Source: Eledone cirrhosa
Lineage: Eukaryota
DNA: 64,000 bases
NCBI GenBank assembly: GCA_964016885.1
Contig: OZ024740.1
Span: forward strand, 81,406,001 to 81,470,000
Direction: 5' to 3'
A model generated the notes under the pieces. The model saw nothing but the letters and a program-made list of their open reading frames with translations, did no database searches and was not told where the DNA came from. Every line of letters starts with the position of its first letter. Position 1 is the stretch's first letter. Below are positions 1,733 through 60,410 of this stretch, in pieces. The position numbers and the translations under genes are program-made.

Positions 1733-3600
1733 TAGTTTTGCGAGGTTTTTTATATGAAATCGTGTGTCGAAACAAATATTGTTATACTTGGGGACGGTCA
1801 TATTTGTGTAATATTGCCAGAATTAATAACAGAACACACTCACTGTTTGGTTGGTTTTCGCTTCTCGCTTCTGTGTCTTTTATATCGGTAATCTAACTTA
1901 CTCGGTCCTCAATGTTGCCATTGACGGACCGACGGTCAAAAATAATACAGATACAATATAGACACAAACACATATATATAGTTTATCATAAATCTTTCGT
2001 TGCACATCTGCAACATCGTCAGTGGTGTTATCGTTTCCTCCTGTTGTATTATATGTCTACGCCATTTTTATTCAGTCTGTCTATATATTTATTTATTTAT
2101 TTGCTTGTTTGTTTATTTTATTTTGTCTTCTTTGCGCATGCGTTTGCGTGTGTGTAGTGTTTTTTTTGCTGTGTGATGGGTGACTAGTGTGTGTTTATGT
2201 GCTTGTTGTTATTGTGTTTGTGTATGTATTTACTTATTTATTTATTTATTTATTTTATTTTATTTACTTATTTATACTTCTCTTAGGTCAGTGTTGTTTG
2301 TTTGGGTGTTGTTGTTATTCCATTCATTCTTTCTGTTTAGTCTTAGCCTTCTAATTTCTATTTTACTGGCCTCTCTGATTTGCCTATCTGCTGGGTCATT
2401 TCTATGTTTAGATATTATTCTAATTTCTATGTTGTCTATGTTACCGTCATGTTGTTTTCTAGCATGTTCGTATAGTACTGACCCGTTTTTTCGTCCTTTT
2501 AGTTCCCCCCAGTGTTGGTCTATCCTTTCACCTATGCTACGAGCTGTCTCACCTATGTATGTTGTTGTCATGTTTCTGCAAGTACTCTCTGTACATCTTA
2601 TGCTATAGACTACGTTTCAAGTTTTACAGTTTATCCAGGGGTTTACCTTACATACGATACACTTCCTATTGGTACAGTGGGTTTTCTGAAAAGTGTAGGT
2701 TTTGCTGATCAGGGATTTTATGGTGGTTCCTGGCTTTTCTACCACCTTAATTTTTAAGTGGGTCTTTCTCAGGGCCTTTCTAAACTGGTTAGCTAATTTC
2801 CCTCCGGGGGTAGCGTCCACAAAGATGACACTCTGGTATCTCTGGTTGTCGTACCATGAGGTGGCTTTCCCTATCTTATGTCTAGCCCTATCTAAGCTAT
2901 TCCATGATTTGCTCCTGTATAATGGGCAAATTCCTTTCATGTCCAGTTCTATGAGTGTCTTATACTTCTCCATGGATCCTTCGTATACTCTAACTCTGTC
3001 TCTTTGGTTGTAGCCAGAGAACTGCACGCGGTTGATGAAGTGTTGGATGTGTCTTTCCATTTCTGTTGGGTCGCACATGCGGGACACATTCTTCATCACT
3101 CGTACGAAATCTGCGATCAGAATATTAAACTTAGCACTACTGGACACTGCTGAGTTTTTGAGTATCAGGTATTTGGAGGCCATGGGTTTAACATAGTTTG
3201 AGTGGAGAATTTGGGCTCTCTCGTCTATAGTGTTAATCCAGAGTTCTGTGTCTAATACAGGTAGTCTATTGTTAGGGTGTTTGGAAGGGGAGTCGATAGT
3301 TACAGTTATACTCTGGTGTATGGAATTAGCTATCTGCTGGATGCTTTCCATCGTGCTACGTTCTAAATCAAACTTGTTAGTGCTTTCTTGTGGGGATGTT
3401 CTTATAACTATATTGATATCGTCTACATAACGAGAGTACATGATGAGGTGTATGGAGCTCTCATTAAGGAGATCTTTAAGTCTCCTTTCCCACCATACCA
3501 TGAAAAGGTTGGCAACATCACCAGCTATGCTGACGCCAATGGCTGCTCCCTCATTTTGGGTGTAGATCTTCTCGTTGAACTTAAATATGTGGCCCTTTAG
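1733..3600 (-). mobile_element. 5'-truncated Penelope-like retroelement (RT + GIY-YIG), possibly Naiad-like, with pLTR
   Basis: ORF 2617-3501 has YSRYVDD, LPVLD, VKPMAS and a Cys cluster; ORF 2272-2571 has YIGETARS...REA; one in-frame stop; HHR in the 3' region. Confidence 0.93.
1984..2027 (-). ncRNA. pLTR hammerhead ribozyme (weak stem I)
   Basis: Minus strand cacca-CTGACGA-t-gttgca gatg tgcaac-GAAA-gatt-TA-tgata. Confidence 0.7.
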
Positions 3601-3602
3601 AG

Positions 3603-3667
3603 TAGTGCATTACTGGTACTTTATTTTATCGACCCCGTAAGGATGAAAGGCAAAGTCAACCTCGGCA
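3603..3667 (-). mobile_element. SINE fragment
   Basis: Matches the gcctttcatccttacggggtcgataaaataaagtaccagt body of the copy at 10414. Confidence 0.8.
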
Positions 3668-9849: not shown

Positions 9850-10200
9850 GGCTGGCAGAACAGAGGGAAAGAGACAGAAGCAGGAGAGATCATAAATCGG
9901 ATGGTCGGAGAGCTGAGCGCCTGGCGGAACAGAGGGAAAGGGACAGAAGCAGGAGAGATCATGAATTGGATGGTCAGAGAGCTTAACGTCTGGCGGAATA
10001 GAGGGAAAGAGACAGAAGCAGGAGAGATCATGAATCGGATGGTCAGAGAGCTTAACGTCTGGCGGAATAGAGGGAAAGAGACAGAAGCAGGAGAGATCAG
10101 GAATCGGATGATCGGAGAACTGAACGTCTGGCGAAACAAAGGGAAAGAGACAGAAGCAGGAGAGATCATGAATCGGATGGTCCCAGAGCTGAACGTCTTT
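9850..10200 (+). repeat. 60 bp coding minisatellite (about 5.5 units) in the Helitron N-terminus
   Basis: Unit encodes RLAEQRERDRSRRDHESDGQ-like charged repeats. Confidence 0.85.
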
Positions 10201-10599: not shown

Positions 10600-13500
10600 A
10601 CAAAACAGCGCCGAACTTCAAGCAAAAGCAGGGCGCATTGTGTTGAAAGAAAAAGGCAAATAATGTCAGAGTCCAATCGGTTCTATGACAGTTTGCAGTA
10701 TGTTCTCTTTTTTTCCTTTTGGCGATGACGGATGGCATCCTGAGCTGTTAATGAGCAACAACAAGAAGTTGACGCCAATACGCTACTATGCCTATCGAAT
10801 AAGGAACCATGAGAATGAATTCAACCAACTTCTCAGAGGCGGTCGTTTATTTCAGCAATATTTGGTTGACATGGCTGCGAAGATTGAAGGAGATAGACTG
10901 CAATACATGCGAATGAATCAAACATCATTGCGATCTACAACGCATACAACGCATTGAATGATGATGACGATTTTTGCAATATTGGCAGGCGAATCATACT
11001 CTCTTCCACATTTGTCGGTGGACCGAGATATATGCTGGAGCGATGCCAGGATGCCATGATGTACATACGGAAGTACAGCAATCCTTCGTTCTTCATCACA
11101 ATGACATGCAATCTAAATTGGCCCGAAATCCGGCAAAACCTATTCCTGAATCAGAAGCCACATGACAGGCCAGATTTAATTGCCAGAGTATTTGACCTGA
11201 AGCGGAAACTGTTAAGAAAGTATGTAACTGGAGTAGATGGCCTATTTGGCAAGTGCATTCCTTAAGTATTGACAGTCGAATATCAAAAGCGAGGTCTTCC
11301 TCATGTCCACTGTTTGCTATGGCTCAATGAAGCCTCCAAGCCCAGACCGCAGGAATATGATAAATTTGTTCAAGCCGAAATACCAGATCCAAACAAAGAT
11401 CCAGAGGGTTATGTATTGGTGCTGAAGCACATGATCCACGGTCCGAATTGCTCTAACAATTCGCCGTGTTGGAAAGATGGAACGTGCAGTAAGCGGTTCC
11501 CTAAGCCTTTCAATGAATATACATTGTGTGGAGAGGATTCTTATCCTGTGTACAGAAGACGGTCTCCAGGAATGGGAGGATTTGAGGGCCACCAAGAAAG
11601 AAGGGGAAGCCGAAATATAACTTCGGAATGGGTGGTTCCCTACAATATGAAACTATTAAAACTGTTGAACTGCCACCTAAACGTAGAGATGTGCTCCTCC
11701 GTGAAATCGATCAAATACGTTATCGAATATACCATGAAGGGCAGTGATCAGGCAATGTTTGAAGTGAACAGGAAACATGAGATAATACAGTATTTAACAG
11801 GAAGATATATCGGTCCTTCAGAAGCTGTTGCCTTGGTACTTGGATTTCCAATTCATGAGAGAGAACCGGCCGTAGTTCACCTTCAAGTTCATCCACCCGA
11901 GGAAAATCAAATCTGCTTTCCGGTCAATGCTGCTGTTAAAGTAAACAATAACATGGCTAAGACGACTCTGGCTGGATCTTTGCGATCGCGATCCGTTTGC
12001 AAAAATATTGTATTTCACCACTGGCCAAAGTTTTACACTTGGAGTAATAAGAGATGGGAATGGAGAAAGGTGGGGAAAACAGTTGAGCAGTATCCAGGGA
12101 TTTTTGAGGCAAACGTTTTGGGACGAGTATACATTGTTTCTCCACGAAGAGGGGACCTGTATTATTTAAGACTCCTTCTGCATCACGTCAAAGGGCCAGT
12201 ATCCTTCAACTCTTTGAAAATGTGTGATGGAGAACTCCTGCTATTATCCAAAGTCATCTGCAGAGAGAAAGGTTTGCTTCAATCGGATGATCATTGGCAG
12301 CAGACTCTGGAAGATGCTGAGCGAACAAGGCTTCCCAAAGCCATGAGAGATCTATTCATCGTGCTCCTCACAAATACGGAAATTGACAATTCCAGTACTT
12401 TATGGGTTCGATTTAAGCATTCGCAGTCTGAGGATTACCATCAAATAGAAAAAAGGGCTACCAGAAACTCTAACCTTTTGATTAGCGAGAGACATTATGA
12501 TCAATGTCTTCTGTATTTTGAAGACAAACTTAACGACCTAGGCAAAAGTCTTAATGATTTTAACTTGCCAAGGCCAAATAATATTGTTGCTAATCAGGAT
12601 ATTGGCAATTTGGACTTATTGCATGAATTGCAATACAGCAGAGAAGAGCAGCGACGATTTGTAGAAGAGATGGAACCTCTATTGAATAATGAACAAAAAC
12701 ACGTGTACGACTTGGTTTGTAACAGTTTAGGGACGGACACATCTGCATTGATTTTCATTGACGCTCCAGGTGGGACAGGAAAGACATTCCTGATTATCTT
12801 AATTCTTTCAAAAGTCAGGGGAAACGGCGATGTGGCTATTGCTGTTGCGTCATCTGGCATTGCCGCAACACTGATGTCTGGGGTAAGAATAGCGCATTCT
12901 AAGTTCAAAATACCGATAGTAGTGAAAGAAAATGATCTGTGCAACATTCTTTCAAATTTTTGCAAATAGAACCAGCTTTTCATTAATATTGTAACTTCTT
13001 AAGCAGAAAAACCTTTCAGAGCAAACAGTCAAGCATCCATAGAGATATAGAAAAAAGAATTTTGAAGTTGAGTGATTAGATAGCTATTACTGAAAAATGA
13101 GTTGAACATTTTCTTTGTGAAAATACTTGTGAATAATACAGTGAAAAGACAGTTTTCGCGTAAATCGGACCATGGGTTCCCGAGATGCGCGGTTTCTTTT
13201 CGGGTACCTCTATAAAGAACCAAATCAGCGCATAATGGGAAAATACTTTGAAAGTAAGGTACCATTGAAATGTGAATACAAACGCAGATAGTGTTTGTGA
13301 GAGAGGGAGAGAGCTGGTGGTGTAGTTGATTGAAATTCTGACAGGTGACTTCAAAGAATCGAATACAGAATTACTGTATCTAGCTTGAATTTGGTGACTG
13401 AATTATTAAGTTATATGTATCTTATAACTTGTGTTAGGATAGGATGTATGTGTGTGTGTGTGACCAGTGTATATAGGGCACAGACACCCACACACACAAA

Positions 13501-20460: not shown

Positions 20461-21502
20461 AAGTATAAAAGAGAAAACACAGGTAAGCATTACGAGAAGG
20501 ATTTTATCCAGGTATTTACGACCGTTTCATTGGTAAGTGCAACCTTATATTGCTATACTGCAAATAGCAGCAACTCAAATATAATTGTTGTTCACAGTCC
20601 AAATTTTCAAGATAGTGAGTAAGTTACTCTTGCAATAATTCTTAATATATAGAGAAAAACATTTATTTGGAATTGTATTTACTAGTATAGAGAGACAGGA
20701 ATCAGAAGGTGAGGGTACAAACAGAATAGTATAGAGAGAGAGGAAGGGGGAAGAAGTAGGAAGTAGAGTGACAAACTGAGATGGAGGGAGGGGTAAAGGT
20801 GGAAGGATTCCTTGGTCAGTTTTGATAGCAGACTTCATGTCGTGGAATGTAGTGAGTTAAAGAGAATTAAATTGATCATAGTGGGAGGGATTGATAGAGA
20901 GGGAGAGAGAGAGGGGGAGATACAAAGAGATCAATATAATATAAATATAAAAAATAAAGATAAAGACAAAAATAAAAGCAAATATGGGGGTGAGAAAGAA
21001 GAAGAGAAAAGATAGCCAATAAGGGGAGGGAAGGAAGGAAGAAAACGAAGAAATAGAAGAACTATGAGGGAGAAGAGGGGGATATATATATTGATTTTGT
21101 GGGTAATTAAAAGGGTTTAGATACAGCAAGAGCGTATAAAGTCTAAGTATATGCGGTTTGTCAGTTAGTATTAAGAGGTTAAGGGTTCGATTTGTAGTGC
21201 GAACACTTCTCTTTACAATAAATTGATATTTCGAAAGATCAATTTATTGTAACCATAGACTCTGATTCCTCTCTCTCTATACTAGTAAATACAATTCCAA
21301 ATAAATGTTTTTCTCTATATTTTAAGAATTATTGCAAGAGTAACTTACTCACTATTTTGAAAATTTGGACTTGTGAACAACAATTATATTTGAGTGGCTG
21401 CTATTTGCAGTATAGCAATATAAGGTTTCACTTACCAATGAAACGGTCGTAAATACCTTGCTAAAATCCTTCTCTTAATGATTACCTGTGTTTTCTCTTT
21501 TA

Positions 21503-21507
<5 letters not shown>
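20461..21507. repeat. Fold-back element (about 250 bp inverted arms) with HHR motifs
   Basis: 20461-20707 is inverted at 21258-21507; extra hairpin at 21214-21252. Confidence 0.85.
21353..21455 (+). ncRNA. Hammerhead ribozyme, U3-A8 core, long stem II (inverted copy at 20513-20614)
   Basis: tatt-TTGAAAA-t-ttgg...ccaa-t-GAAAC-ggtc-GTA-aata. Confidence 0.55.
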
Positions 21508-21549
<42 letters not shown>

Positions 21550-21676
21550 TGTATATATAGTGTATTTTGCAATACACTGTATGCTTAATTAAAAGCATTT
21601 CGAAGACCTTACGCTATTGTTTTAGAATAGTGACAGTCTCACTTACTTTATATTTTCAGCAAACAGGGGGAGATAA

Positions 21677-21721
21677 AGCTGACAGAGCTATGTTTCGTAC
21701 TTTTTGGTACTTATCAAAGCT
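21677..21721 (-). ncRNA. Hammerhead ribozyme, U3-A8 core
   Basis: Minus strand agct-TTGATAA-gtac caaaaa gtac-GAAAC-atagctct-GTC-agct. Confidence 0.82.
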
Positions 21722-22000
21722 AAGTACTGCACCTGTTTGCTGAACATCATGAATGTTTGACTCTTATAGAATTCTCTAAAACAATAGCGTAAGGTCTTCC
21801 AAATGCTTTTTATTAAGCATACAGTGTATTGCAAAATACACTATATATACATTCATATATATATAGCTATTTCAGAGCACCAATTCTAATTTTCAATTTC
21901 TGCTTGACCGGCAACCGCTCTGTATAATCAGTTCCTGATTATTACTAGAATTCTATAAGAATCAAACATTGATGATTTTCAGCAGACAGGTGGAGTACTT

Positions 22001-22045
22001 AGCTTTGATAAGTACCAAAAAGTACGAACCAGAGCTCTGTCAGCT
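22001..22045 (+). ncRNA. Hammerhead ribozyme, U3-A8 core (GAAA changed to GAAC in this copy)
   Basis: agct-TTGATAA-gtac caaaaa gtac-GAACC-agagctct-GTC-agct. Confidence 0.7.
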
Positions 22046-22211
22046 TTATCTCCCCTGTTTGCTGAATATTTAAAGTAAGTGAGACTGTCACTACACTAAA
22101 ACAATAGCGTAAGGTCTTCGAAATGCTTTTAATTAAGCATACAGTGTATTGCAAAATACACTATATATACATTCATATATATATCGCTATTTCAGAGCAC
22201 CAATTCTAATT

Positions 22212-22243
<32 letters not shown>

Positions 22244-22861
22244 TTTATTGATTAAAGGTTACTTAGTATCTAATTCTCAAACAACTCAATGAAAGAAATC
22301 TCTCAAAGTAGCAATATTATATATATTAAAATTAAATGAGAAAACATTCTGGGAATATAAAAAAGATAGATGAAAACATTTTTTTATTTACTTCGTTTAT
22401 ACATAGATCTCCTTATTATAGTTTCGTATGGGGAAGAATGATTATTGGCACCACCAATAATTGATAAATCCGTTATATTATTTAAGGGAGTATAATTCTT
22501 CGAGTATAAGATAAATGGAACAAGATATAGTACATACTGTTTCCATAGTCAAGAGAGCAATGTGAAATAGTAACACGCGTAGTGTTACGTTCCCAAATCT
22601 CTTAAGATATGAGTACTTGACAGGCTTATCATGAGGCTGGAAATAACAGCCTAAACACTGTCTGGTACAGCTCGGCACATTACGGAGCAGTTAAATATTA
22701 TTTAAAGGTCAAATGGTTTCTAATACCCAAACGTGACGATGAAAGAAATGGCGGATTCTTCAATTATTGGAGATCTACATGTAAACAAAGTTAGATAAAA
22801 ATGTTTTTCGTCTATCTTGTTTGTACTTCCAAAATTAGAGGTATATAATTATATATATATA

Positions 22862-24817
22862 TTTCGTTTCTGAATTTGTTTAGCAAGATTCTTTATCTGA
22901 AATCGTGTGTTGAAACCGATATTGTTATACTTTGGGAGAGTCATGTTGCCAATAAGAAACACACGCACCATTGCTTTCACTTCAATTTATTATATATTTA
23001 TAAATGTATAAATTTATAAATTTCTGGTTGGTTGGTTGGTTCCACAACCAGGTAGTTGTTTATATATAGTCATAGTTCTTTCGTCACACACTATGTGACC
23101 TCTTCAGTGAGTAGGGATTCCTTTCTTTGTTTCTGTGCCTCTCCTTTGTTCTGTCCTACGCCATTTTGTTTCTGTGTGTGTGTTGTGTGCTCAGTCTGCG
23201 CATGCGCCACATCCGGGTGTCTGTGTGTGTTTATGTTCATTTATTTATTTGTTTATTTACATGTTACTGGTTGGTTGTTTGTTCTATGTGTGTGTGTGTT
23301 TTCATTTTGTCCTTAATTGTAAGTTGTGAAGTTGCAGTTCCACTCATATTTTCTATTTAGTTTTGGTTGTAATTCTTTTATGTTTATTGCCTCTGTAATT
23401 TGTCTAAACATTGCGTCTTTTATTTCTATGTTCTCTAATTTACCCTTGTGTTCTATCTTAGCATGTTGGTAGAGTACAGATGATTCTTTATTATCTTGAA
23501 GGTCTCACCAGTGTTCATTTATCCGTTCCCCTATACTACGAGCTGTCTCACCTATGTACACTATATTTTTGTCTCTACATTGTCCTTCAGTACATCTTAT
23601 GCTATACACTACATTTCTAGTTTTACAGTTAATATGGGGACTTATTTTACAGGTTATACATTTCTTATCTATACATGAGGGTCTTTGAAAAGGGTATGTC
23701 TTGCTAATAAGTGTTTTTACGGAGCTACCTGGTCTTTCTACTATCTTAATATTGAGTTTATGTTTATTTAGGGCCCTTCTAAATTTGTAAGCTAATTCAC
23801 CTCTAGGGGTTGTATCGATGAACATCACACTCTGGTATTTATTGCTATCATACCATGAGTTTATTCTGTTGGCCTTGTTCCTAGTTCTTTCTATTCTATT
23901 CCAAAATGTGTTCCTATACAAGGGGCAGGTCCCATTTATGTCATTATTTACCATTTTTTTCCATTTGGTTCTGGCTCCTCTATACACTCTGATTTTATCT
24001 CTCTGATTGTAGCCAGAGAACTGCATACGGTGGATGAAGTGTTGTATGTGTCTCTCTAGTTCTTCGGGGTTGCACATGCGGGACACATTTCTCATCACCC
24101 GTACCAAATCCGCAATCAGTATGTTGATTTTGGTATGGTCCGAAATGGCCGAGTTTCGGTGGATCAGATGTTTGGAAGTCATGGGTTTGGCATAATGGGA
24201 ATGGAGGAGTTGTTTTTGTTGTTAATGGTATCTAACCAGAGCTTTGTGTCTAGTACAGGTAATCGATGGTTGGGGTGTATACTTGGGTAGTCTATAGTAA
24301 CTCTAATGCTCTGGTGGATGGAGTTTGCTATTTGCTGGATGCTTTCCATTGTGTTTTTCTCTAGTTCCTGACTGTTCTCTAGTGGGGGTGTCTTAACTAC
24401 GATGTTTATATCATCTACGTAGCGGGAGTACATTATCAGGGTTAAGGGGTCTTGTAATTGTTCTTTAAGTTTAAGTTTAAGTCTACTGTCCCACCATACC
24501 ATGAATAAGTTAGCTATGTCGCCTGTAATGCTAACACCAATGGCTGCTCCTTCCTCTTGGGCATATGTTTTTCCATTAAATTTGAACATATGTTCCTTAA
24601 GGGTTAGTTTTATGCTGGCCCCTACCGCATGTGCAATCATTTTCTTCAGTTCATCGTGGTTTTCGGGTGTCCGTATGGCTCTGGTCCACCCGTTCCATCT
24701 ATCTGTGTGGGTTTTCTTGGCCATTGAGGTAATGGTAGGTGGTCTGCCTCTTGCTGGTCTTGTAGGGCACAGGTTGCTAAGGTCATATGTGTCTAGGTAA
24801 CTATTACTATAGGTAAG
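22862..24817 (-). mobile_element. Penelope-like element, left arm of the palindrome (frameshifted)
   Basis: ORFs 24179-24724 (GAAIG, YSRYVDD) and 23505-24182 (VVYSIRC, YIGETARS). Confidence 0.95.
23068..23112 (-). ncRNA. pLTR hammerhead ribozyme, left arm
   Basis: Minus strand actca-CTGAAGA-g-gtcaca tagtg tgtgac-GAAA-gaac-TA-tgact. Confidence 0.8.
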
Positions 24818-24910
24818 CTTACCTATAGCAATAGTTACCTAGACACATATGACCTTAGCAACCTGTGCCCTACAAGACCAGCAAGAGGCAGACCACCTAC
24901 CATTACCTCA

Positions 24911-26155
24911 ATGGCCAAGAAAACCCACACAGATAGATGGAACGGGTGGACCAGAGCCATACGGACACCCGAAAACCACGATGAACTGAAGAAAATCATT
25001 GCACATGCGGTAGGGGCCAGCATAATACTAACCCTTAAGGAACATATGTTCAAATTTAATGGAAAAACATATGCCCAAGAGGAAGGAGCAGCCATTGGTG
25101 TTAGCATTACAGGCGACATAGCTAACTTATTCATGGTATGGTGGGACAGTAGACTTAAACTTAAACTTAAAGAACAATTAGAAGACCCCTTAACCCTGAT
25201 AATGTACTCCCGCTACGTAGATGATATAAACATCGTAGTTAATACACCCCCACTAGAGAACAGTCAGGAACTAGAGAAAAACACAATGGAAAGCATCCAG
25301 CAAATAGCAAACTCCATCCACCAGAGCATTAGAGTTACTATAGACTACCCAAGTAAACACCCCAACCATCGATTACCTGTACTAGACACAAAGCTCTGGT
25401 TAGATACCATTAACAACAAAAAACAAATCCTCCATTCCCATTATGCCAAACCCATGACTTCCAAACATCTGATCCACCGAAACTCGGCACTTTCGGACCA
25501 TACTAAAATCAACATACTGATTGCGGATTTGGTACGGGTGATGAGAAATGTGTCCCGCATGTGCAACCCCGAAGAACTAGAGAGACACATACAACACTTC
25601 ATCCACCGTATGCAGTTCTCTGGCTACAATCAGAGAGATAAAATCAGAGTGTATAGAGGAGCCAGAACCAAATGGAAAAAAATGGTAAATAATGACATAA
25701 ATGGGACCTGCTCCTTGTATAGGAACACATTTTGGAATAGAATAGAAAGAACTAGGAACAGGGCCAACAGAATAAACTCATGGTATGATAGCAATACATA
25801 CCAGAGTGTGATGTTCATCGATACAACCCCTAGAGGTGAATTAGCTTACAAATTTAGAAGGGCCCTAAATAAACATAAACTCAATATTAAGATAGTAGAA
25901 AGACCAGGTAGTTCCGTAAAAACACTTATTAGCAAGACATACCCTTTTCAAAGACCCTCATGTATAGATAAGAAATGTATAACCTGTAAAATAAGCCCCC
26001 ATATTAACTGTAAAACTAGAAATGTAGTGTATAGCATAAGATGTACTGAAGGACAATGTAGAGACAAAAATATAGTGTACATAGGTGAGACAGCTCGTAG
26101 TGTAGGGGAACGGATAAATGAACACTGGCGAGACCTTCAAGATAATAAAGAATGA
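24911..26155 (+). CDS. Partial PLE reverse transcriptase + GIY-YIG endonuclease
   Basis: QEEGAAIGVSITGDIANLFM, YSRYVDD, LPVLD, CKTRNVVYSIRC, YIGETARS; 5'-truncated, premature TGA. Confidence 0.9.
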   Translation: MAKKTHTDRWNGWTRAIRTPENHDELKKIIAHAVGASIILTLKEHMFKFNGKTYAQEEGAAIGVSITGDIANLFMVWWDSRLKLKLKEQLEDPLTLIMYSRYVDDINIVVNTPPLENSQELEKNTMESIQQIANSIHQSIRVTIDYPSKHPNHRLPVLDTKLWLDTINNKKQILHSHYAKPMTSKHLIHRNSALSDHTKINILIADLVRVMRNVSRMCNPEELERHIQHFIHRMQFSGYNQRDKIRVYRGARTKWKKMVNNDINGTCSLYRNTFWNRIERTRNRANRINSWYDSNTYQSVMFIDTTPRGELAYKFRRALNKHKLNIKIVERPGSSVKTLISKTYPFQRPSCIDKKCITCKISPHINCKTRNVVYSIRCTEGQCRDKNIVYIGETARSVGERINEHWRDLQDNKE

Positions 26156-26540
26156 TCTGTACTCTACCAACATGCTAAGATAGAACACAAGGGTAAATTA
26201 GAGTACATAGAAATAAAAATAGAATCAACACACAGAAAAGACGCAATGTTTAGACAAATTACAGAGGCAATAAACATAAAAGAATTACAACCAAAATTAA
26301 ATAGAAAATATGAATGGAACAGCAACATCACAACTTACAATTAAGGACAAAATGAAAACACACACATAGAACAAACAACCAATCAGTAACATGTAAATAA
26401 ACAAATAAATAAATGAACATAAACACACACAGACACCCGGATGTGGCGCATGCGCAGACTGAGCACACAACACACACACAGAAACAACATGGCGTAGGAC
26501 AGAACAAAGGAGAGGCACAGAAACAAAGAAAGGAATCCCC

Positions 26541-26585
26541 AGTCACTGAAGAGGTCACAGAGTGTGTGACGAAAGAACTATGACT
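26541..26585 (+). ncRNA. pLTR minimal type I hammerhead ribozyme
   Basis: agtca-CTGAAGA-g-gtcaca gagtg tgtgac-GAAA-gaac-TA-tgact; perfect stem I, CUA cleavage triplet. Confidence 0.88.
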
Positions 26586-26965
26586 ATATATAAAGAACTA
26601 TCTGGTTGTGGAACCAACCAACCAACCAGAAATTTATAAATTTATAAATATATAATAAATTGAAGTGAACGCAACTGGTGCGTGTGTTTCTTATTGGCAA
26701 CATGACCCTCCCAAAGTATAACAATATATATATATATGTATATATATATATAAAGTATGTATACGTACATACATATATGTATACAGACGTACAGTAGCAT
26801 GTATATATATACATACATGCACACATATATATATATATATATGTACGTATGGGTTTACCAAACATTTATTATAATGCTTGGTTTCTTTGTAAACAAACAT
26901 CCGGAATTAAGCCGTACAGTGTTTAGCAACCATCGTTGCCCTTTTGTTCAACACTGACAGAGGAA

Positions 26966-29844: not shown

Positions 29845-29877
<33 letters not shown>

Positions 29878-29884
<7 letters not shown>

Positions 29885-30943
29885 GTATTTTGCAATACAC
29901 TTTATGCTTAATTAAAAGCATTTTGAAGACCGTAAGCTATTGTTTTAAAGTAGTGACAAATTCATTCACTTTGATCTCAGCAAACAGGAGAGATAAGCCG
30001 ACAAGTCTTGTTTCACTTTGGTTGAAGCTTATCAAGGCCAACTACCCCATCTGTTTACTGAGATCATTGATGTTATATTCTTATAGAAATCTAGTAAATA
30101 ATCAGGAGCTAATTATGCAGAGCGGTTGTTGGTCAGGCAGAAATTAAAAATTAGAATTGGAGCTCTGAAATAGCAATATATATATGGATGTATATATAAT
30201 GTATTTTGCAATACACTTTATGCTTAATTAAAAGCATTTTGAAGACCGTAAGCTATTGTTTTAAAGTAGTGACAAATTCACTCACTTTGATCTCAGCAAA
30301 CAGGAGAGATAAGCCGACAAGTCTTGTTTCGCTTTGGTTGAAGCTTATCAAGGCCAACTACCCCATCTGTTTACTGAGATCATTGATGTTATATTCTTAT
30401 AGAAATCTAGTAAATAATCAGGAGCTGATTATGCAGAGCGGTTGTTGGTCAGGCAGAAATTAAAAATTAGAATTGGAGCTCTGAAATAGCAATATATATA
30501 TGGATGTATATATAATGTATTTTGCAATACACTTTATGCTTAATTAAAAGCATTTTGAAGACCGTAAGCTATTGTTTTAAAGTAGTGACAAATTCACTCA
30601 CTTTGATCTCAGCAAACAGGGGAGATAAGCCGACAAGTCTTGTTTCGCTTTGGTTGAAGCTTATCAAGGCCAACTACCCCACCTGTTTACTGAGATCATC
30701 GATGTTATATTCTTATAGAAATCTAGGGGTAGTTGGCCTTGATAAGCTTCAACCAAAACGAAACAAGACTTGTCGGCTTATCTCCCCTGTTTGCTGAGAT
30801 CAAAGTGAGTGAATTTGTCATACTTTAAAACAATAGCTTACGGTCTTCAAAATGCTTTTAATTAAGCATAAAGTGCATTGCAAAATACATTATATATACA
30901 TCCATATATATATTGCTATTTCAGAGATCCAATTCTAATTTTG
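29878..30943 (-). mobile_element. Retrozyme-like array: about 2.7 tandem 316 bp units plus an inverted partial unit, inside (TA)n
   Basis: Near-identical units offset by 316 bp (29890, 30206, 30522); inversion from 30726; one HHR per unit. Confidence 0.9.
30312..30355 (-). ncRNA. Hammerhead ribozyme, U3-A8 core (copies at 29996-30039 -, 30628-30671 -, 30735-30778 +)
   Basis: Minus strand ggcc-TTGATAA-gctt caacca aagc-GAAAC-aag a ctt-GTC-ggct. Confidence 0.85.
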
Positions 30944-35689: not shown

Positions 35690-38150
35690 ATTAATTATTT
35701 TGCTTGAAAGTAGAGTGACATGGTTTGCTATACAATAAGCGCTTTATTCACATTGCTGACAATTGTTCTCTCTGAACTGGTAGGTCTAGAGATCGCTACT
35801 CGCCTATTTTTGCGTCAATCGATCACCATTACTTTGTTATAACCAGTCTAATCATCAGAGCATGCGAGAAGAAGGATATACACAGGCATGGCCTCTATAT
35901 ATAATAGTGGCATTAAACAATACTCAAATAAATTAGCTAGATAGTAAATAGTTAAAACAATCACAACATCAATCTAAGTAAAAAGTAGAGTATACTGATG
36001 ACTTTAGCATGTAAAACGAACTGATATGAAACAGATGTATGAAATTGACATGTGAAAGCCGTCATGGGGTAGATTATATATAGTGTAGAGATAACCGGGG
36101 GCTTGAAACAAAGGGCCATTTCCTTTACTGTAGGTTTGCTGACCGTAAGATTTATTTATTATTTGACAGATAAAATATTTTCATTGTAGTGAGGATGGTA
36201 ATTTGGTGTAAAGTGGATTCATTATTTAAGTGGTCTATATTAGATGTAGGGATGTAGGGATTGTTAGTTCGAATCATGGGGGTTGTTTAGCTTTCACAGC
36301 ATCAATAACAAATCATGCATGAATAAGACAACAATAACAACAATATAGGCAATAAGGTAATACAGAGGTTAAGAAAGCAAGGTATATATAGTGAACATGA
36401 TGAATTCTATTACGGATACATCGGGGGTGTTCATTATAACAACAGGAGGAAGGTGATATTTCAAGGACTGTGGTAGTAGTAAAATAATGTACTTATAATT
36501 AAGTTCATCAGTTGAAAATCATGAGTGCTAATGTGAGGAGGTGGTGTTGACAGCAGCCGAGAAGAGATATATTTATGGGTTGATAAGATATTTGCAGAGA
36601 TTAATGTGGTATAGAATTAAGGAGGCTATAAGTTGTTTAAAGAATATTATAGTTCCGTGGTGGTCTGTGTGAGAGTGCGGATTTCATATGTTGAATGCTA
36701 AGTTATGTTGTTTCGAATCACGGTGGCTTAAATTGTGTGAATTTAGTAGCGATCCTGTGTCTGCAGAAAATTGACCTTTCTATTTTGTTGTTGAGTAGCC
36801 TTTTATCGTTCCTAAGGATATACAGTAATTCAAGGTCGCAAAGTCTACAATAGGACATACCGAAAACCTCGACCAGTTGATATTGTAGTTGATGTTATTG
36901 TCCTTAAGTTCCCAAATATTTTTGGCGAGGGTTGTAGAACCTATTAGTGCACAGTTATTCATCGAATGTCTGTGCACATACCACCTTTTTTTAAACGTAC
37001 CCGCTGTGGATCCAATGTAATGCCAGGTGGAGTTGCCCGAGTTCACCGTACACACGTACACTAGGCTCAAATCAAGGCACCTGTTCGCCAATTGGCACCT
37101 ATCTGGTAGGTGACAATTGGAGTTTGACGTATTATTCCGTGCAGTTTCCACATTGCTGTTTTTTACACTGCTATAAGTGGGTTGTGATTCATGCCCGTTG
37201 AGGTCTTGTTGCGGCACGCTCGTATGCGTTTGCGGTTGTGATACGGTGATGTGTTTATGTTTAGAATTTGGTGCTATGTTGCGTATAGGTCGGGTGGTTT
37301 CACTAGAGGTATTTCTGTGGTTGATCTTGCGTATGTGGGATTCTATATTTGCAGCCGTAGAGTATGAGAGTATTATAGTTTTTCTATTGAGCATTGTATT
37401 ATATCTATGTGATATAGGGAAGTGCTTATCTATTAGTTTAAAAAACGTAGAAGGCAGTCTATTTTTTACAGAGGAGTTGAAGATTGGATTAAACCATAGG
37501 TATTTTCTTTCTCTAATTCTTCTATAGATTCTAAGGTTTACATTATTCGTGTTTGGACCACCTACTCTAGGTGCTATTTGCCCACCTCTATATCTAGTCC
37601 CGTTACCTTTATTTTTGTGTGAGAGGTTGGTGTCAGTGTTAATGGGTTTGTTTGAGTTGTCCTTATCCGTTATAAACTGTAGCTTTTCTTTGTGTCCGGC
37701 CTTATGTAATGCCGCGTTATAATAGTTAGCATGTTCAATTAAACATTTCTAGGTTTGAGGATAAGCGGGATATTCTAAGGGATATACTACGTGCTATGGA
37801 TCTCATTATGGATCGGGGGTGGTTTGAGTTATAACTAATGTAGGCCAGATTTTCATTATTTTTGTGGAAGGGTTCTATTAATCCCGTATTTATAATTAGT
37901 TATACGTCTAGAAAGTTTGCCTTTTTATGATTCAGTTCGTAGGTAATACTTAGGCCTATTTCTTTTTAAGAATGTTCTAATGTTTTTTCTTAATCTTTCC
38001 ATGCTCTCGTTATTTAAGTTCCTAGCTATAAGGAGTGTGTCAACTTATAAATCCCTCCTTGTAGGTTACTCAATTCTTTATGTAGGTTCTGTGCTATAAA
38101 TAACCCCACGACGTCAGTGATTTGCGCTGAATCGTTCCATCCATTCACCT
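35690..38150 (-). mobile_element. Decayed Penelope-like element of a second lineage (WFNP motif)
   Basis: Minus strand YLWFNPIFN..FFKLIDKHFP..ILSYS, LVYVCTV..YIGSTAGTFKKRW (GIY-YIG), SNHP thumb motif; frameshifts. Confidence 0.85.
35754..35862 (-). ncRNA. pLTR hammerhead ribozyme with long stem II (GAAA degenerate)
   Basis: Minus strand tgct-CTGATGA-tta-gactggt...accagtt-cagaga-GAAC-aatt-GTC-agca. Confidence 0.6.
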
Positions 38151-52411: not shown

Positions 52412-53412
52412 TATGATTAAAGAGTTCTAAACTCAAACAGTCCTTTACAATGAAATAGCTCAAAGAAAGAAGTATTTCTGAGCCGTGTAATACATGTTAA
52501 TATAAATTAATATATATGATAAACACAAATACCAACATATAAGTGTTTGTATTGTAAATGACTAAGTTAGCTAGATTGACAAATACTAATTATAATAATA
52601 CAGTTTGCCTGTCTCGATTTAAAATAATAAATCAATAAAAACAAACCATATTGGAAAATGGCCGTGGTACTTGGACAAATTTAAATTTCAAAATCCAAAC
52701 CTGTTCCGTAGATAAGTTTAAACTTCAAAATCCAAATAAGTTTCGATAAATGAAAAAGGGAAAAAATACCCTATTCAGATCTCATCAGCAAGTACCCTGA
52801 AAAATTGGTATGTTTCACTTCAAAATATTTAAGAAGACTGATCAACGCACATGGTTTCTCAGTGTCTAGATGCCGCATACTCGTGCTGCTAGAAATAACA
52901 GCCGTTTTTATGGGGCTAAAATTAGCTCGACAGAAGGAGCCGTGATACTATGAATAAAGAGTTCTAAACTCAAACAGTCCTTTACAATGAAATAGCTCAA
53001 AGAAAGAAGTATTTCTGAGCCGTGTAATACATGTTAATATAAATTAATATATATGATAAACACAAATACCAACATATAAGTGTTTGTATTGTAAAGGACT
53101 AAGTTAGCTATAATTGAAAAATACTAATTATAATAATACAGTTTGCCTGTCTCGATTTAAAATAATAAATCAATAAAAACAAATCATATTGGCAAATGGC
53201 CGTGGTACTTGAACAAATTTAAATTTCAAAATCCAAACCTGTTCCGTAGATAAGTTTAAACTTCAAAATCCAAATAAGTTTCGATAAATGAAAAAGTGAA
53301 AAAATACCCTATTTACAATTAGTATTTTTCAATCTAGCTAACTTAGTCATTTAGAATACAAACACTTATATGTTGGTATTTGTGTTTATCATATATATTA
53401 ATTTATATTAAC
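52411..53412 (-). mobile_element. Retrozyme/pLTR-like element: 1.7 tandem 537 bp units plus an inverted segment
   Basis: ctatga(t/a)taaagagttctaaactc at 52411 and 52948; 53314-53412 is an inversion of about 52497-52592. Confidence 0.82.
52666..52796 (-). ncRNA. Hammerhead ribozyme with 8 bp stem I and long stems II and III
   Basis: Minus strand ggtacttg-CTGATGA-gat..tgaa..aggg/ccct..ttca..atc-GAAAC-(about 63 nt)-GTC-caagtacc. Confidence 0.78.
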
Positions 53413-53424
53413 TTGTATATATAT

Positions 53425-55119
<1,695 letters not shown>

Positions 55120-58591: not shown

Positions 58592-60410
58592 GGTGTGTGT
58601 GTGTGTGTGTGTGTGCGTGTATGTGTGCGTGTGTATGTGAAGGGGTGTAAATATGGGCCTAGATTCCCTATCAAGTTATAAATTGGGTGTTGTGTTCTAG
58701 TCTATTATTGATTGGTGGGTGTGTTTTGTCTATAATTAGTGCTTCCTTAATTCTAAGATTGCCGAGCTTTCTTTCCTTAGTTTCTATCCTAACTGTTATG
58801 GTTTTGTCGGTGTTTTTGCATTTAACTAGGTGTTTCTTAAATGAGGAAGCGTTAGTATTGAGGTGTACTTTTATTCTTATGTGGAGTGGTCTGGTGGTGT
58901 TACCTACGTAGAAGTTGCTGCATTTGTCGCACTCTAGTCTGTATACGACGTAAGCCTGGTGCATAGGTCTGTGCCGTTGATGGGGCAGTTGGCTAGCCTG
59001 CAGCGGTTGTCATGTCTGGTGGAGTGTCTGTTGGTTAGCTGTCCGCGTAGAGAAGGTCCTGAGTGGGCCAGTTGGATATCTAGTCCCTCTCATCTGATAG
59101 CTCTGCGGATGGCTGTTGTTGTTTCGTCACTGACGTCTGGGAGCTTCAGGAAGCAAGTGTTAGTGTCTCGGGAGTGGTGTCCTCTGTTCTCTCTGGCACG
59201 GTTTGTGGTAGATGTCCTGTATCCGTTCAGTTTGAGTACTTCCAGGAAATGTGTGGTGTGTGTGTCTCGGTCTCTAGCGTCGGTGCATTTGTTCCGGATA
59301 CGTGTTAGTTCGTTCCTTATGTATCCGAACTTAGCACCGGCTGGAGGGCCGATCGGAAATGTACGAACAGGTCCCTGCTGGCGGCTTTTTTATAGAAGCA
59401 GGTGTGGATGTTGCCTTCATCTGTTACCCTGAGTTGGAATTCCAGTAGGGATAGGGATCCGCGGTCATCGGGGTGTTCCATGCTGAACTTTATACTGGCA
59501 TCCATGCTGGAGAATGTTGTGTATATTTTATCCGCCTCCTCACAGGATGATGTAAGGATGAGTATGTGATCTACATATCGGGTGAAGAAGGTATGGGAAT
59601 GGCAGGTGTTGATGGCTCGGCATTCTAGCTGGTTCATATAGGTGATGGCCAGCAGACCCGTTAGGCTGGATCCCATGGGTAATCCTGTTTTCTGTCTGTA
59701 TGTCTGGTGGTGGAAGGTGAAGTACGTTTTGTCCACTGTGAAGGACAAAAGCTGGTGTATGTCCGTCGGATGTAGGCCGTAGTAGTGGATGTCCTCTGCG
59801 ACCACGCAGTCCGTCAATAAATCGACAGCTGGATGAGTGGGGACTGTAGTGTAGAGGGAGACAACGTCGAGGCTAAAGGCGTATATATTTAGTTTAAGTT
59901 GTTGTGGCTGGAGTTGGTGTAGTCTACGTATGACTTAGTCGGAGCTACTGACATGCCCGGGAAAGGTGGAGAGTAGAGGCTTGAGGACCTGGGAGAGGAG
60001 CCAGGAAATATTGTATATGTGTGCTTCCATGCTAGAGACGATGGGTCTTATTTGTGTCTTAGTACTATTCTTGTGGGTCTTGACGAGGTGGTAGAAAGTG
60101 GGCAGTCTGCTATTTCTTGTGGTGTAGTTGAGCTTAACTTTATTTGGGAGTTGTCTTCTCCTACAGATGTCGAACCAGATGGAGTTGGTCTGTTTTTCGA
60201 TCTGGGCTGCAGTCATGTCCGGGATCTCTGTATATAGTTCATTGTCGCTTAGGTGTCAAAGGCTAGGTTGTTGTATGTGGCTTGACAGATGACGCAAACC
60301 TCTTTACCTTTATCGGATGGTAAGTAAATAAGTTCCCTATTCCGTAGGTTCTTCAGGGCGAGTTGTTGTGTCCTGGAAAGGTTTGGGGCAATCTTCTTCG
60401 GTTTCCTTAA
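58090..60410 (-). mobile_element. Penelope/Poseidon-type PLE, decayed, 5'-truncated
   Basis: LVKTHK..IRPIVSS, SLDVVSLYT, QKTGLPMGS, RYVD, VVYRLECDKC..YVGNTTRPL..IKEAL. Confidence 0.92.
58194..58229 (-). ncRNA. pLTR hammerhead ribozyme, C4 variant (stem III reduced)
   Basis: Minus strand cct-CCGAAGA-a-gagat att atctc-GAAA-at-TA-agg. Confidence 0.55.

What the first reader, a model, noticed from the sequence alone, without database searches (positions are those of the whole stretch)
21540..22212. Sister 320 bp subfamily shows compensatory change in all three HHR stems while keeping TTGATAA
Seen, against the 29878 array: stem I ggcc/ggct becomes agct/agct, stem II gctt/aagc becomes gtac/gtac, and stem III aag-a-ctt becomes the palindrome agagctct, while TTGATAA and GTC are invariant (GAAAC is intact at 21677). 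Inference: covariation around a fixed variant core points to selection on a functional ribozyme rather than decay. The palindromic stem III suggests dimeric cleavage, as established for minimal PLE HHRs.
Basis: partly seen in the sequence, partly recalled or inferred. Interest (0 to 1): 0.85.

Follow-up and report, generated by a model that had tools for sequence, protein, structure and literature searches.

The report
Self-cutting RNA repeat riding Penelope retrotransposons
This is a damaged copy of a 320-base repeat found thousands of times in this animal genome; its subfamilies swap both partners of base pairs in a hammerhead-shaped RNA fold, which likely reflects selection for self-cutting in a passenger element probably spread by Penelope-type retrotransposons, a known kind of element.

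Summary
The stem differences between the 21540 and 29878 repeats are real. Both belong to one family of ~320-bp hammerhead repeats (4,381 core matches against 2 for the control). Fifteen subfamilies form a ladder. All four stem II pairs, two stem I pairs and one stem III pair change on both sides, while 20 of 27 copy-private stem mutations break pairs. The core is not fixed, though: older subfamilies carry canonical C3-G8, so the 3-8 pair itself covaries, and position 7 varies. That supports a functional ribozyme in the source lineage better than invariance would. Inserted copies decay neutrally. Both ribozymes at this locus are damaged and lie on opposite strands, so no dimer can form here. 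The ribozyme is canonical type I, not a minimal PLE hammerhead. Dimer cleavage is favoured by folding models but untested. Insertions carry the Penelope-like (PLE) signature: tail-out inversion, a ~30-base tail at one end, and (TA)n targets. A few are fused to PLE coding fragments. Verdict: a new non-LTR retrozyme family of a known kind, with U3-A8 already described; an unusually clean evolutionary record.

The parts
21537..21775 (-). Left arm of the inverted insertion: 5'-truncated unit of subfamily A1, 3' end at the short end (about +143 from the cleavage site), merging into (TA)n
21677..21721 (-). Type I hammerhead, U3-A8 core, intact GAAAC, stem III mismatch at 15.4; predicted cleavage after 21681
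21776..22212 (+). Right arm: partial unit plus one full ~321-bp unit, 3' end at the long (tail) end, about +171
22001..22045 (+). Type I hammerhead, U3-A8 core, palindromic stem III, copy-private A15.1-to-C change at 22029 (likely inactive); predicted cleavage after 22041
21978..22067 (+). Extended stem I (about 13 bp beyond an internal loop) enclosing the ribozyme; covaries between subfamilies
22185..22212 (+). About 28-base tail present at this end only, like the PLE tail
   Evidence: PMC8557442 passages
21501..21546 (.). (TA)n target microsatellite, left flank
22213..22233 (.). (TA)n target microsatellite, right flank
29860..30941 (.). Comparison insertion, subfamily B1: 2.7 tandem 316-bp units on the minus strand plus an inverted arm with tail; four hammerheads, two with a private stem II change
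22860..26724 (.). Context: tail-out inverted, 5'-truncated autonomous-type PLE (RT plus GIY-YIG) with its own minimal hammerhead and the same short-end/long-end pattern; one of the families found fused to retrozyme arms elsewhere

Best explanation
The locus is a decayed insertion of a ~320-bp repeat family whose source copies likely encode an active type I hammerhead ribozyme and which is probably copied into (TA)n sites in trans by the proteins of Penelope-like retrotransposons (a non-LTR retrozyme). Shown: family size, the subfamily ladder, two-sided stem changes, the switch between C3-G8 and U3-A8, neutral decay after insertion, and insertion anatomy. Inferred: tandem source arrays are transcribed; two ribozymes pair through their self-complementary stem III and cut out unit-length RNA, which is likely ligated to a circle. 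A PLE reverse transcriptase/GIY-YIG protein nicks both strands of a (TA)n target and primes at two sites about 143 and 170 nt downstream of the cleavage site. It copies through the cleavage junction and leaves a tail-out inverted insertion. Only source copies that keep the fold go on to found new subfamilies.
For: Covariation: on 17 real copies (14 subfamily representatives, 3 window copies), 97.7% of cells are paired and 12 of 26 pairs change on both sides; 0 of 500 shuffles reach this, and slid controls give 32-43% paired. RNAalifold finds the three-way junction unprompted. Lineage changes in stems Ia/II keep pairing in 11 of 11 events, against 7 of 27 private events (Fisher 2.6e-5). Twelve invariant core positions show 0 lineage changes, against 72 changes at 207 outside sites (P about 0.027). 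Positions 3/8: U3-A8 4,381 matches; C3-G8 124 matches, 91 of the 100 listed in this family; mismatched C3.A8 25 of 49 and U3.G8 18 of 42, scattered over subfamilies at about the private mutation rate. The same ladder comes from non-ribozyme columns. PLE signature: 122 of 190 insertions are tail-out inverted, 92 of those 122 have one short and one tail end, and 162 of 244 flanks are AT runs. Autonomous PLEs here show the same two-end pattern. Seven of 74 free 5' ends lie next to an outward-pointing PLE coding fragment, against 2 of 306 3' ends and 0 of 74 for LINE fragments; 4 of the 7 survive inspection. The double-hammerhead fold is 5.9-15.9 kcal/mol below two monomer folds in 6 of 6 tandem pairs. 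U3-A8 is reported as natural, and as active in vitro (PMC3088659 passage; PMC4209133).
Against: Cleavage, transcription and circles were not observed here. The 3-8 switch is a single event. Lineage-level exceptions exist: a sub-lineage of subfamily H with U.U at 10.1-11.1 (7 of 30 copies; not counted in the 11 of 11), recurrent C or U at 15.4 that breaks a stem III pair, and an extra A in the core. Insertion ends ignore the cleavage site: 5' ends fall there in 7 of 298 arms, about 9 expected. This fits circles but also uncut multimers, and in L081 both arms mirror a pattern with damaged-core copies upstream, which suggests a multimeric template. No autonomous PLE sharing the unit's sequence turned up in the fetched loci. 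In one PLE tested in vitro the ribozyme was not needed for insertion (PMC11167929). Eight of 9 Xenopus retrozyme dimers did not cleave in vitro (bioRxiv 2026.07.22.740005). Subfamily labels used ribozyme motifs, and subfamilies C, D and E were found by a core pattern, which biases toward core invariance.
Confidence: 0.8

Rival explanations
1. The hammerhead fold is kept for a role other than cutting, for example as a structure bound by the PLE protein, or cutting happens only with protein help and is not needed for insertion.
For: Insertion ends and truncation points show no mark of the cleavage site. The predicted monomer fold is an inactive alternative helix in most subfamilies. The anole PLE hammerhead cleaves only with protein, and its mutants still insert in vitro (PMC11167929).
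Against: The constraint follows catalytic rules: 12 core positions are unchanged, 3-8 changes as a pair, and the one freely varying core position is 7, as described for hammerheads (PMC2837043 passage).
Confidence: 0.1
2. The two-sided changes are a neutral product of template switching at hairpins during DNA or cDNA synthesis, which repairs stems in one step; the ribozyme is a relic.
For: Stem Ia/II sites change about four times faster than the rest of the unit (22 changes at 16 sites against 72 at 207). The one wobble intermediate looked for was not amplified (8 matches). The mechanism is described (PMC8794818, abstract and opening text only).
Against: It does not explain the unchanged single-stranded core or the 3-8 change, which is not a hairpin stem. 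Private stem events are 1 of 27 two-sided, so such repair is rare in inserted copies. It could still supply the second step that selection then keeps.
Confidence: 0.05
3. The units are not an independent element but 5'-truncated ends (pseudo-LTRs) of one autonomous PLE.
For: The insertion anatomy is that of PLEs. Vertebrate retrozymes are related to pseudo-LTRs (bioRxiv 2026.07.22.740005).
Against: Upstream of a unit lies another unit, up to about 26 in one array, not an ORF. Where PLE coding sequence adjoins, it mostly points away, belongs to different families and carries its own, unrelated minimal hammerhead. This was checked in fetched loci only, not genome-wide.
Confidence: 0.05

Closest known systems
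Non-LTR retrozymes of metazoans (Cervera and de la Pena 2020, PMC7229834; newt/axolotl satellite 2, coral, mussel)
   Same: Non-coding 150-450 bp repeat, GC under 50%, one canonical type I hammerhead per unit, monomers to multimers, thousands of copies, co-occurring PLEs.
   Different: Most copies here carry U3-A8; stem III is longer (3-4 bp plus a self-complementary loop, against 1-2 bp); insertions are mostly tail-out inverted with a PLE tail; expression as circles is untested here.
Minimal hammerheads in PLE pseudo-LTRs (Cervera and de la Pena 2014, PMC4209133)
   Same: Type I topology, palindromic stem III region, U3-A8 variant (about 1,300 hits in Schistosoma mansoni), high stem variability with compensatory changes, paired copies on opposite strands.
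   Different: Those have a 7-8 bp helix II, a short helix I, an extra nucleotide between 9 and 10.1 and almost no helix III, and they flank an ORF. None of these features is present here.
EN+ Penelope-like elements (Craig et al. 2021, PMC8557442; Frangieh et al. 2024, PMC11167929)
   Same: Partial tandems, inverted 5'-truncated copy, 30-40 bp tail at one end, two 3' end sites, AT-rich or (TA)n targets.
   Different: No RT/GIY-YIG ORF in the unit; no sequence-related autonomous partner found in the fetched loci.
pDo500 hammerhead satellite of Dolichopoda crickets (PMC2837043)
   Same: Same kind of evidence: conserved core, variable position 7, compensatory changes in stems I and II including 10.1-11.1.
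   Different: There stems are more conserved than the rest and C3/G8 stay conserved. Here stems turn over faster than the rest, and the 3-8 pair switches within the family.

Membership tests
Type I hammerhead ribozyme | Core N3UGANN8A-GAAA-UH with a Watson-Crick 3-8 pair | tested here: met
   Met in the family; the plus-strand window copy fails at A15.1
Type I hammerhead ribozyme | Three helices around the core, helix I open | tested here: met
   below Rfam gathering scores
Type I hammerhead ribozyme | Self-cleavage 3' of H17 | not testable with these tools
   Needs an in vitro assay
Non-LTR retrozyme | 150-450 bp non-coding repeat with one type I hammerhead per unit, in tandem copies | tested here: met
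   316-322 bp spacing in tandem pairs; 44 of 298 arms exceed 500 bp
Non-LTR retrozyme | [quoted passage not shown] | tested here: not met
   Not met at 21540-22212 (one ribozyme per strand); met elsewhere in the family, e.g. L023, L062
Non-LTR retrozyme | Expressed as linear and circular RNA | not testable with these tools
   No RNA holder listed; no evidence either way
Minimal PLE hammerhead | Long helix II, short helix I, extra nucleotide between 9 and 10.1, helix III nearly absent | tested here: not met
   4-bp helix II, extended helix I, no 9/10.1 insert, 3-4 bp helix III
PLE-mobilised element | Inverted 5'-truncated copy, tail at one end, microsatellite target | tested here: met
   122 of 190, 92 of 122 and 162 of 244 respectively
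PLE-mobilised element | Homology to the pseudo-LTR of an autonomous PLE | tested here: inconclusive
   None in fetched loci; no genome-wide search
Autonomous PLE | RT plus GIY-YIG ORF between pseudo-LTRs | tested here: not met
   Unit is about 320 bp; adjoining PLE coding fragments in 32 of 193 loci belong to other elements

The most novel reading that the evidence does not exclude
The family has evolved a self-locking hammerhead: in a lone unit the stem I 5' strand plus core positions 3-5 pair with the 5' half of stem III (6-7 of 7 pairs in 13 of 15 subfamilies), keeping circles uncut, and only a tandem neighbour's palindrome unlocks it. The U3-A8 switch would be part of that tuning. The RNA is picked up promiscuously by PLE proteins of several unrelated families, as the fused retrozyme-PLE insertions suggest, which would be direct genomic evidence for how retrozymes move.
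Probability: 0.25. Interest if true: 0.7.

Novelty: new member of a known kind. Interest (0 to 1): 0.45.

Why it matters
Retrozymes are assumed to need their ribozyme and to be moved by PLEs, but the papers read call PLEs a 'strong candidate' (PMC7229834) or argue from co-occurrence and homology (bioRxiv 2026.07.22.740005), and one in vitro PLE system did not need its ribozyme. This family gives an ordered series of natural variants, including both forms of the catalytic 3-8 pair on one backbone, plus insertion ends that carry the PLE signature. It makes three questions directly testable: whether cleavage needs a dimer, what U3-A8 costs or gains, and which PLE protein mobilises the RNA. The single locus itself is an ordinary dead copy.

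Tried and rejected
Rfam at gathering score: nothing. Expression: no RNA holder listed; three contig runs laid show DNA-level variants only, and the second organism's contigs did not cover the ribozyme. An apparent C3.A8 subfamily (L134, L144) was rejected: its siblings are mostly U3-A8. CpG decay as the cause of the A-U pair at 10.1-11.1 in subfamily H was rejected: it is the majority state of 30 copies. A peak of 5' truncation at the cleavage site was not found. Depletion of pre-insertion variants in the core was untestable: only 17 shared variants, Fisher p = 1. An amplified G.U intermediate between subfamilies C and D was not found (8 matches). Three of seven candidate PLE fusions were dropped: L129 (TA flank), L009 (short TA run at the junction) and L215 (adjoining PLE complete on its own). 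No sequence-related autonomous partner was found in fetched loci. Earlier scan notes held nothing relevant. Two key papers (Lunse et al. on dimer cleavage; Przybilski and Hammann on 3-8 exchanges) were not held and are known only through citing passages. R-scape is not available; stand in for it.

Full report
Observation. The window lies in a 3.0-Gb animal genome. It holds six hammerhead cores of one repeat family: two at 21540-22212 and four at 29860-30941. The 21540 locus is a tail-out inverted insertion in (TA)n with one ribozyme per strand. Each is damaged: the plus copy has A15.1 changed to C, and the minus copy has a stem III mismatch. Rfam gives no match at gathering score and weak Hammerhead_HH9 matches whose loop 2 agrees with the model consensus.

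Family. The pattern TTGATAAG-N10-14-CGAAAC-N6-9-GTC has 4,381 matches against 2 for the control. A flank pattern that leaves the core free has 3,739 against 0. From 230 loci, chosen as best hits or first pattern matches and so not a random sample, I aligned 286 units. I sorted 282 of them into 15 subfamilies; 4 were left out. Labels used ribozyme motifs. A tree from columns outside the ribozyme gives the same ladder, H, G, A0, (F), A/C, D, E, B, except that A1, A2 and C are not separable there. I rooted it on H, the most distant group, whose copies diverge 4.5% from their majority against 1.1% in B1; best-hit sampling biases these ages.

Covariation. Stem II steps through ACAC/GTGT, GTAC/GTAC, GCAC/GTGC, GCAT/ATGC and GCTT/AAGC, so all four pairs change on both sides. 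Two stem Ia pairs and pair 15.4-16.4 do too. On 17 real copies, 97.7% of cells pair and 12 of 26 pairs change on both sides; no shuffle of 500 reaches this, and slid partners give 32-43% (the shuffle ignores relatedness). RNAalifold recovers the junction unprompted. Counted as events, 11 of 11 lineage changes in stems Ia/II keep the pair (7 two-sided, 4 wobble), whereas 20 of 27 copy-private events break it (p = 2.6e-5). A simulation on the tree gave no broken pair in at most 1 of 10,000 runs with 18 changes, and in 0.3-2% with 6. Against this: 7 of 30 H copies share U.U at 10.1-11.1 (not split off in the count), and C or U at 15.4 recurs across loci and at about 9% depth in run X1.

Core. The core is not fixed. 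Subfamilies G and H carry C3-G8; 91 of the 100 listed matches, of 124, to a C3-G8 pattern belong to this family (counted by hand). Mismatched forms are rare and scattered: 25 of 49 and 18 of 42 matches (counted by hand), about 0.5% per site. Position 7 is T, C, G or A by lineage. Twelve other core positions never change between subfamilies, against 72 changes at 207 outside sites (P about 0.027). An extra A between C11.1 and G12 appears in 11 of 100 rows, from 7 insertions. Inserted copies mutate equally in core, stems and elsewhere (2.0, 2.0, 2.1%), so selection acted on sources only. U3-A8 is known in nature (PMC4209133, parts 1-2 of 4 read; PMC3088659, passages), and two other families in this genome have it.

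Dimer question. This is not a minimal PLE hammerhead: helix II has 4 bp, helix I is extended and helix III has 3-4 bp. Invertebrate retrozyme monomers with weaker helix III cleave alone (PMC7229834, parts 2-4 of 6 read). Still, the stem III insert is self-complementary to the centre in 11 of 15 subfamilies, has one unpaired centre base in 3 and a central G.A in 1; the innermost pairs cannot form in a monomer hairpin. In 6 of 6 real tandem pairs the double hammerhead is 5.9-15.9 kcal/mol below two monomer folds, yet 1.4-5.6 above the unconstrained ensemble. The active monomer fold has probability below 0.007 in 12 of 13 representatives, mostly because of an alternative helix that keeps 6-7 of 7 pairs in 13 of 15 subfamilies. 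These models omit tertiary contacts. By hand calculation such a helix arises by chance in about 7% of ancestors, and transitions tend to preserve it, so the lock is a hypothesis. I put dimer-favoured cleavage at about 0.6.

Mobilisation. Of 190 insertions, 122 are tail-out inverted; 92 of these end at about +143 on one side and +169-172 on the other, and 162 of 244 flanks are AT runs. This matches the PLE description (PMC8557442, passages) and the two reverse-transcription starts found in vitro (PMC11167929, parts 1-2 of 4). Autonomous PLEs in this genome show the same two ends. The arms of one insertion share 17 otherwise private variants against about 1 expected (50 loci), so both come from one source. 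5' ends are spread around the unit, with 7 of 298 at the cleavage site; 249 of 298 arms run through it, though the searches favoured such arms. A circle or an uncut multimer fits; L081 favours a multimer. Seven of 74 free 5' ends adjoin outward-pointing PLE coding sequence, against 2 of 306 3' ends and 0 of 74 for LINEs (some query proteins came from these loci). Four (L014, L028, L077, L105) have direct junctions and involve at least three PLE lineages. Later deletions could also make such joins, so this is suggestive.

Comparison and novelty. The element meets the sequence criteria of non-LTR retrozymes (PMC7229834; bioRxiv 10.64898/2026.07.22.740005, parts 1-3 of 5 read; its supplements were not seen and may list related families). 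A similar footprinting study exists for a cricket satellite (PMC2837043, passages). Five searches of the held library listed no paper describing a 3-8 switch within one family or retrozyme-PLE fused insertions; I judged this from listings and the papers named, and the library lacks most subscription journals. Hammerhead numbering follows the papers read. Verdict: real, a new member of a known kind, with selection on the fold well supported, cleavage and its mode untested. Interest 0.45.

Noticed in passing
L204:1700-2750: A second ~312-bp tandem/inverted repeat family shares the tail and 3' backbone of this unit but carries a minimal C3-G8 hammerhead with a 6-base palindrome; weaker relatives at L144:1800-2000, L003:2700-3200 and L135:223-280. 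The ribozyme module seems to change on a common backbone.
   Followed up: partly
G000 matches (e.g. C1:5338607, C1:65777654): Two other hammerhead families in this genome have U3-A8 cores and palindromic stem III, so the variant is not unique to this family.
   Followed up: no
G000:C1:29409831, 37515020, 47998760, 70680755, 75019070, 76231032, 80994276: A lineage with an extra A between C11.1 and G12 of the core, seen with both stem I types.
   Followed up: no
window 22860-26724: Tail-out inverted PLE with RT and GIY-YIG, a minimal hammerhead near each end and a tail of about 58 bases at the left end only.
   Followed up: partly
window 11266-12966: Helitron-like open frame with PIF1 helicase match (Pfam E 3.7e-24).
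   Followed up: no
window 2620-3609, 36783-37748, 53347-53841, 59320-59934: Further retroelement coding fragments, PLE-like by eye; two have Pfam RT matches.
   Followed up: no
L068:1100-1950: A retrozyme insertion lies between the two inverted arms of another hammerhead-bearing element.
   Followed up: no
G000:C1:293635236-293643459: Tandem array of about 26 B1 units, a candidate source locus.
   Followed up: no
window 22085-22185 and homologous columns: Three or four small hairpins 3' of the ribozyme, three with one two-sided change each (in subfamily H or F); they lie next to the inferred priming sites.
   Followed up: partly
window 9852-10198: Five copies of a 69-bp tandem repeat.
   Followed up: no
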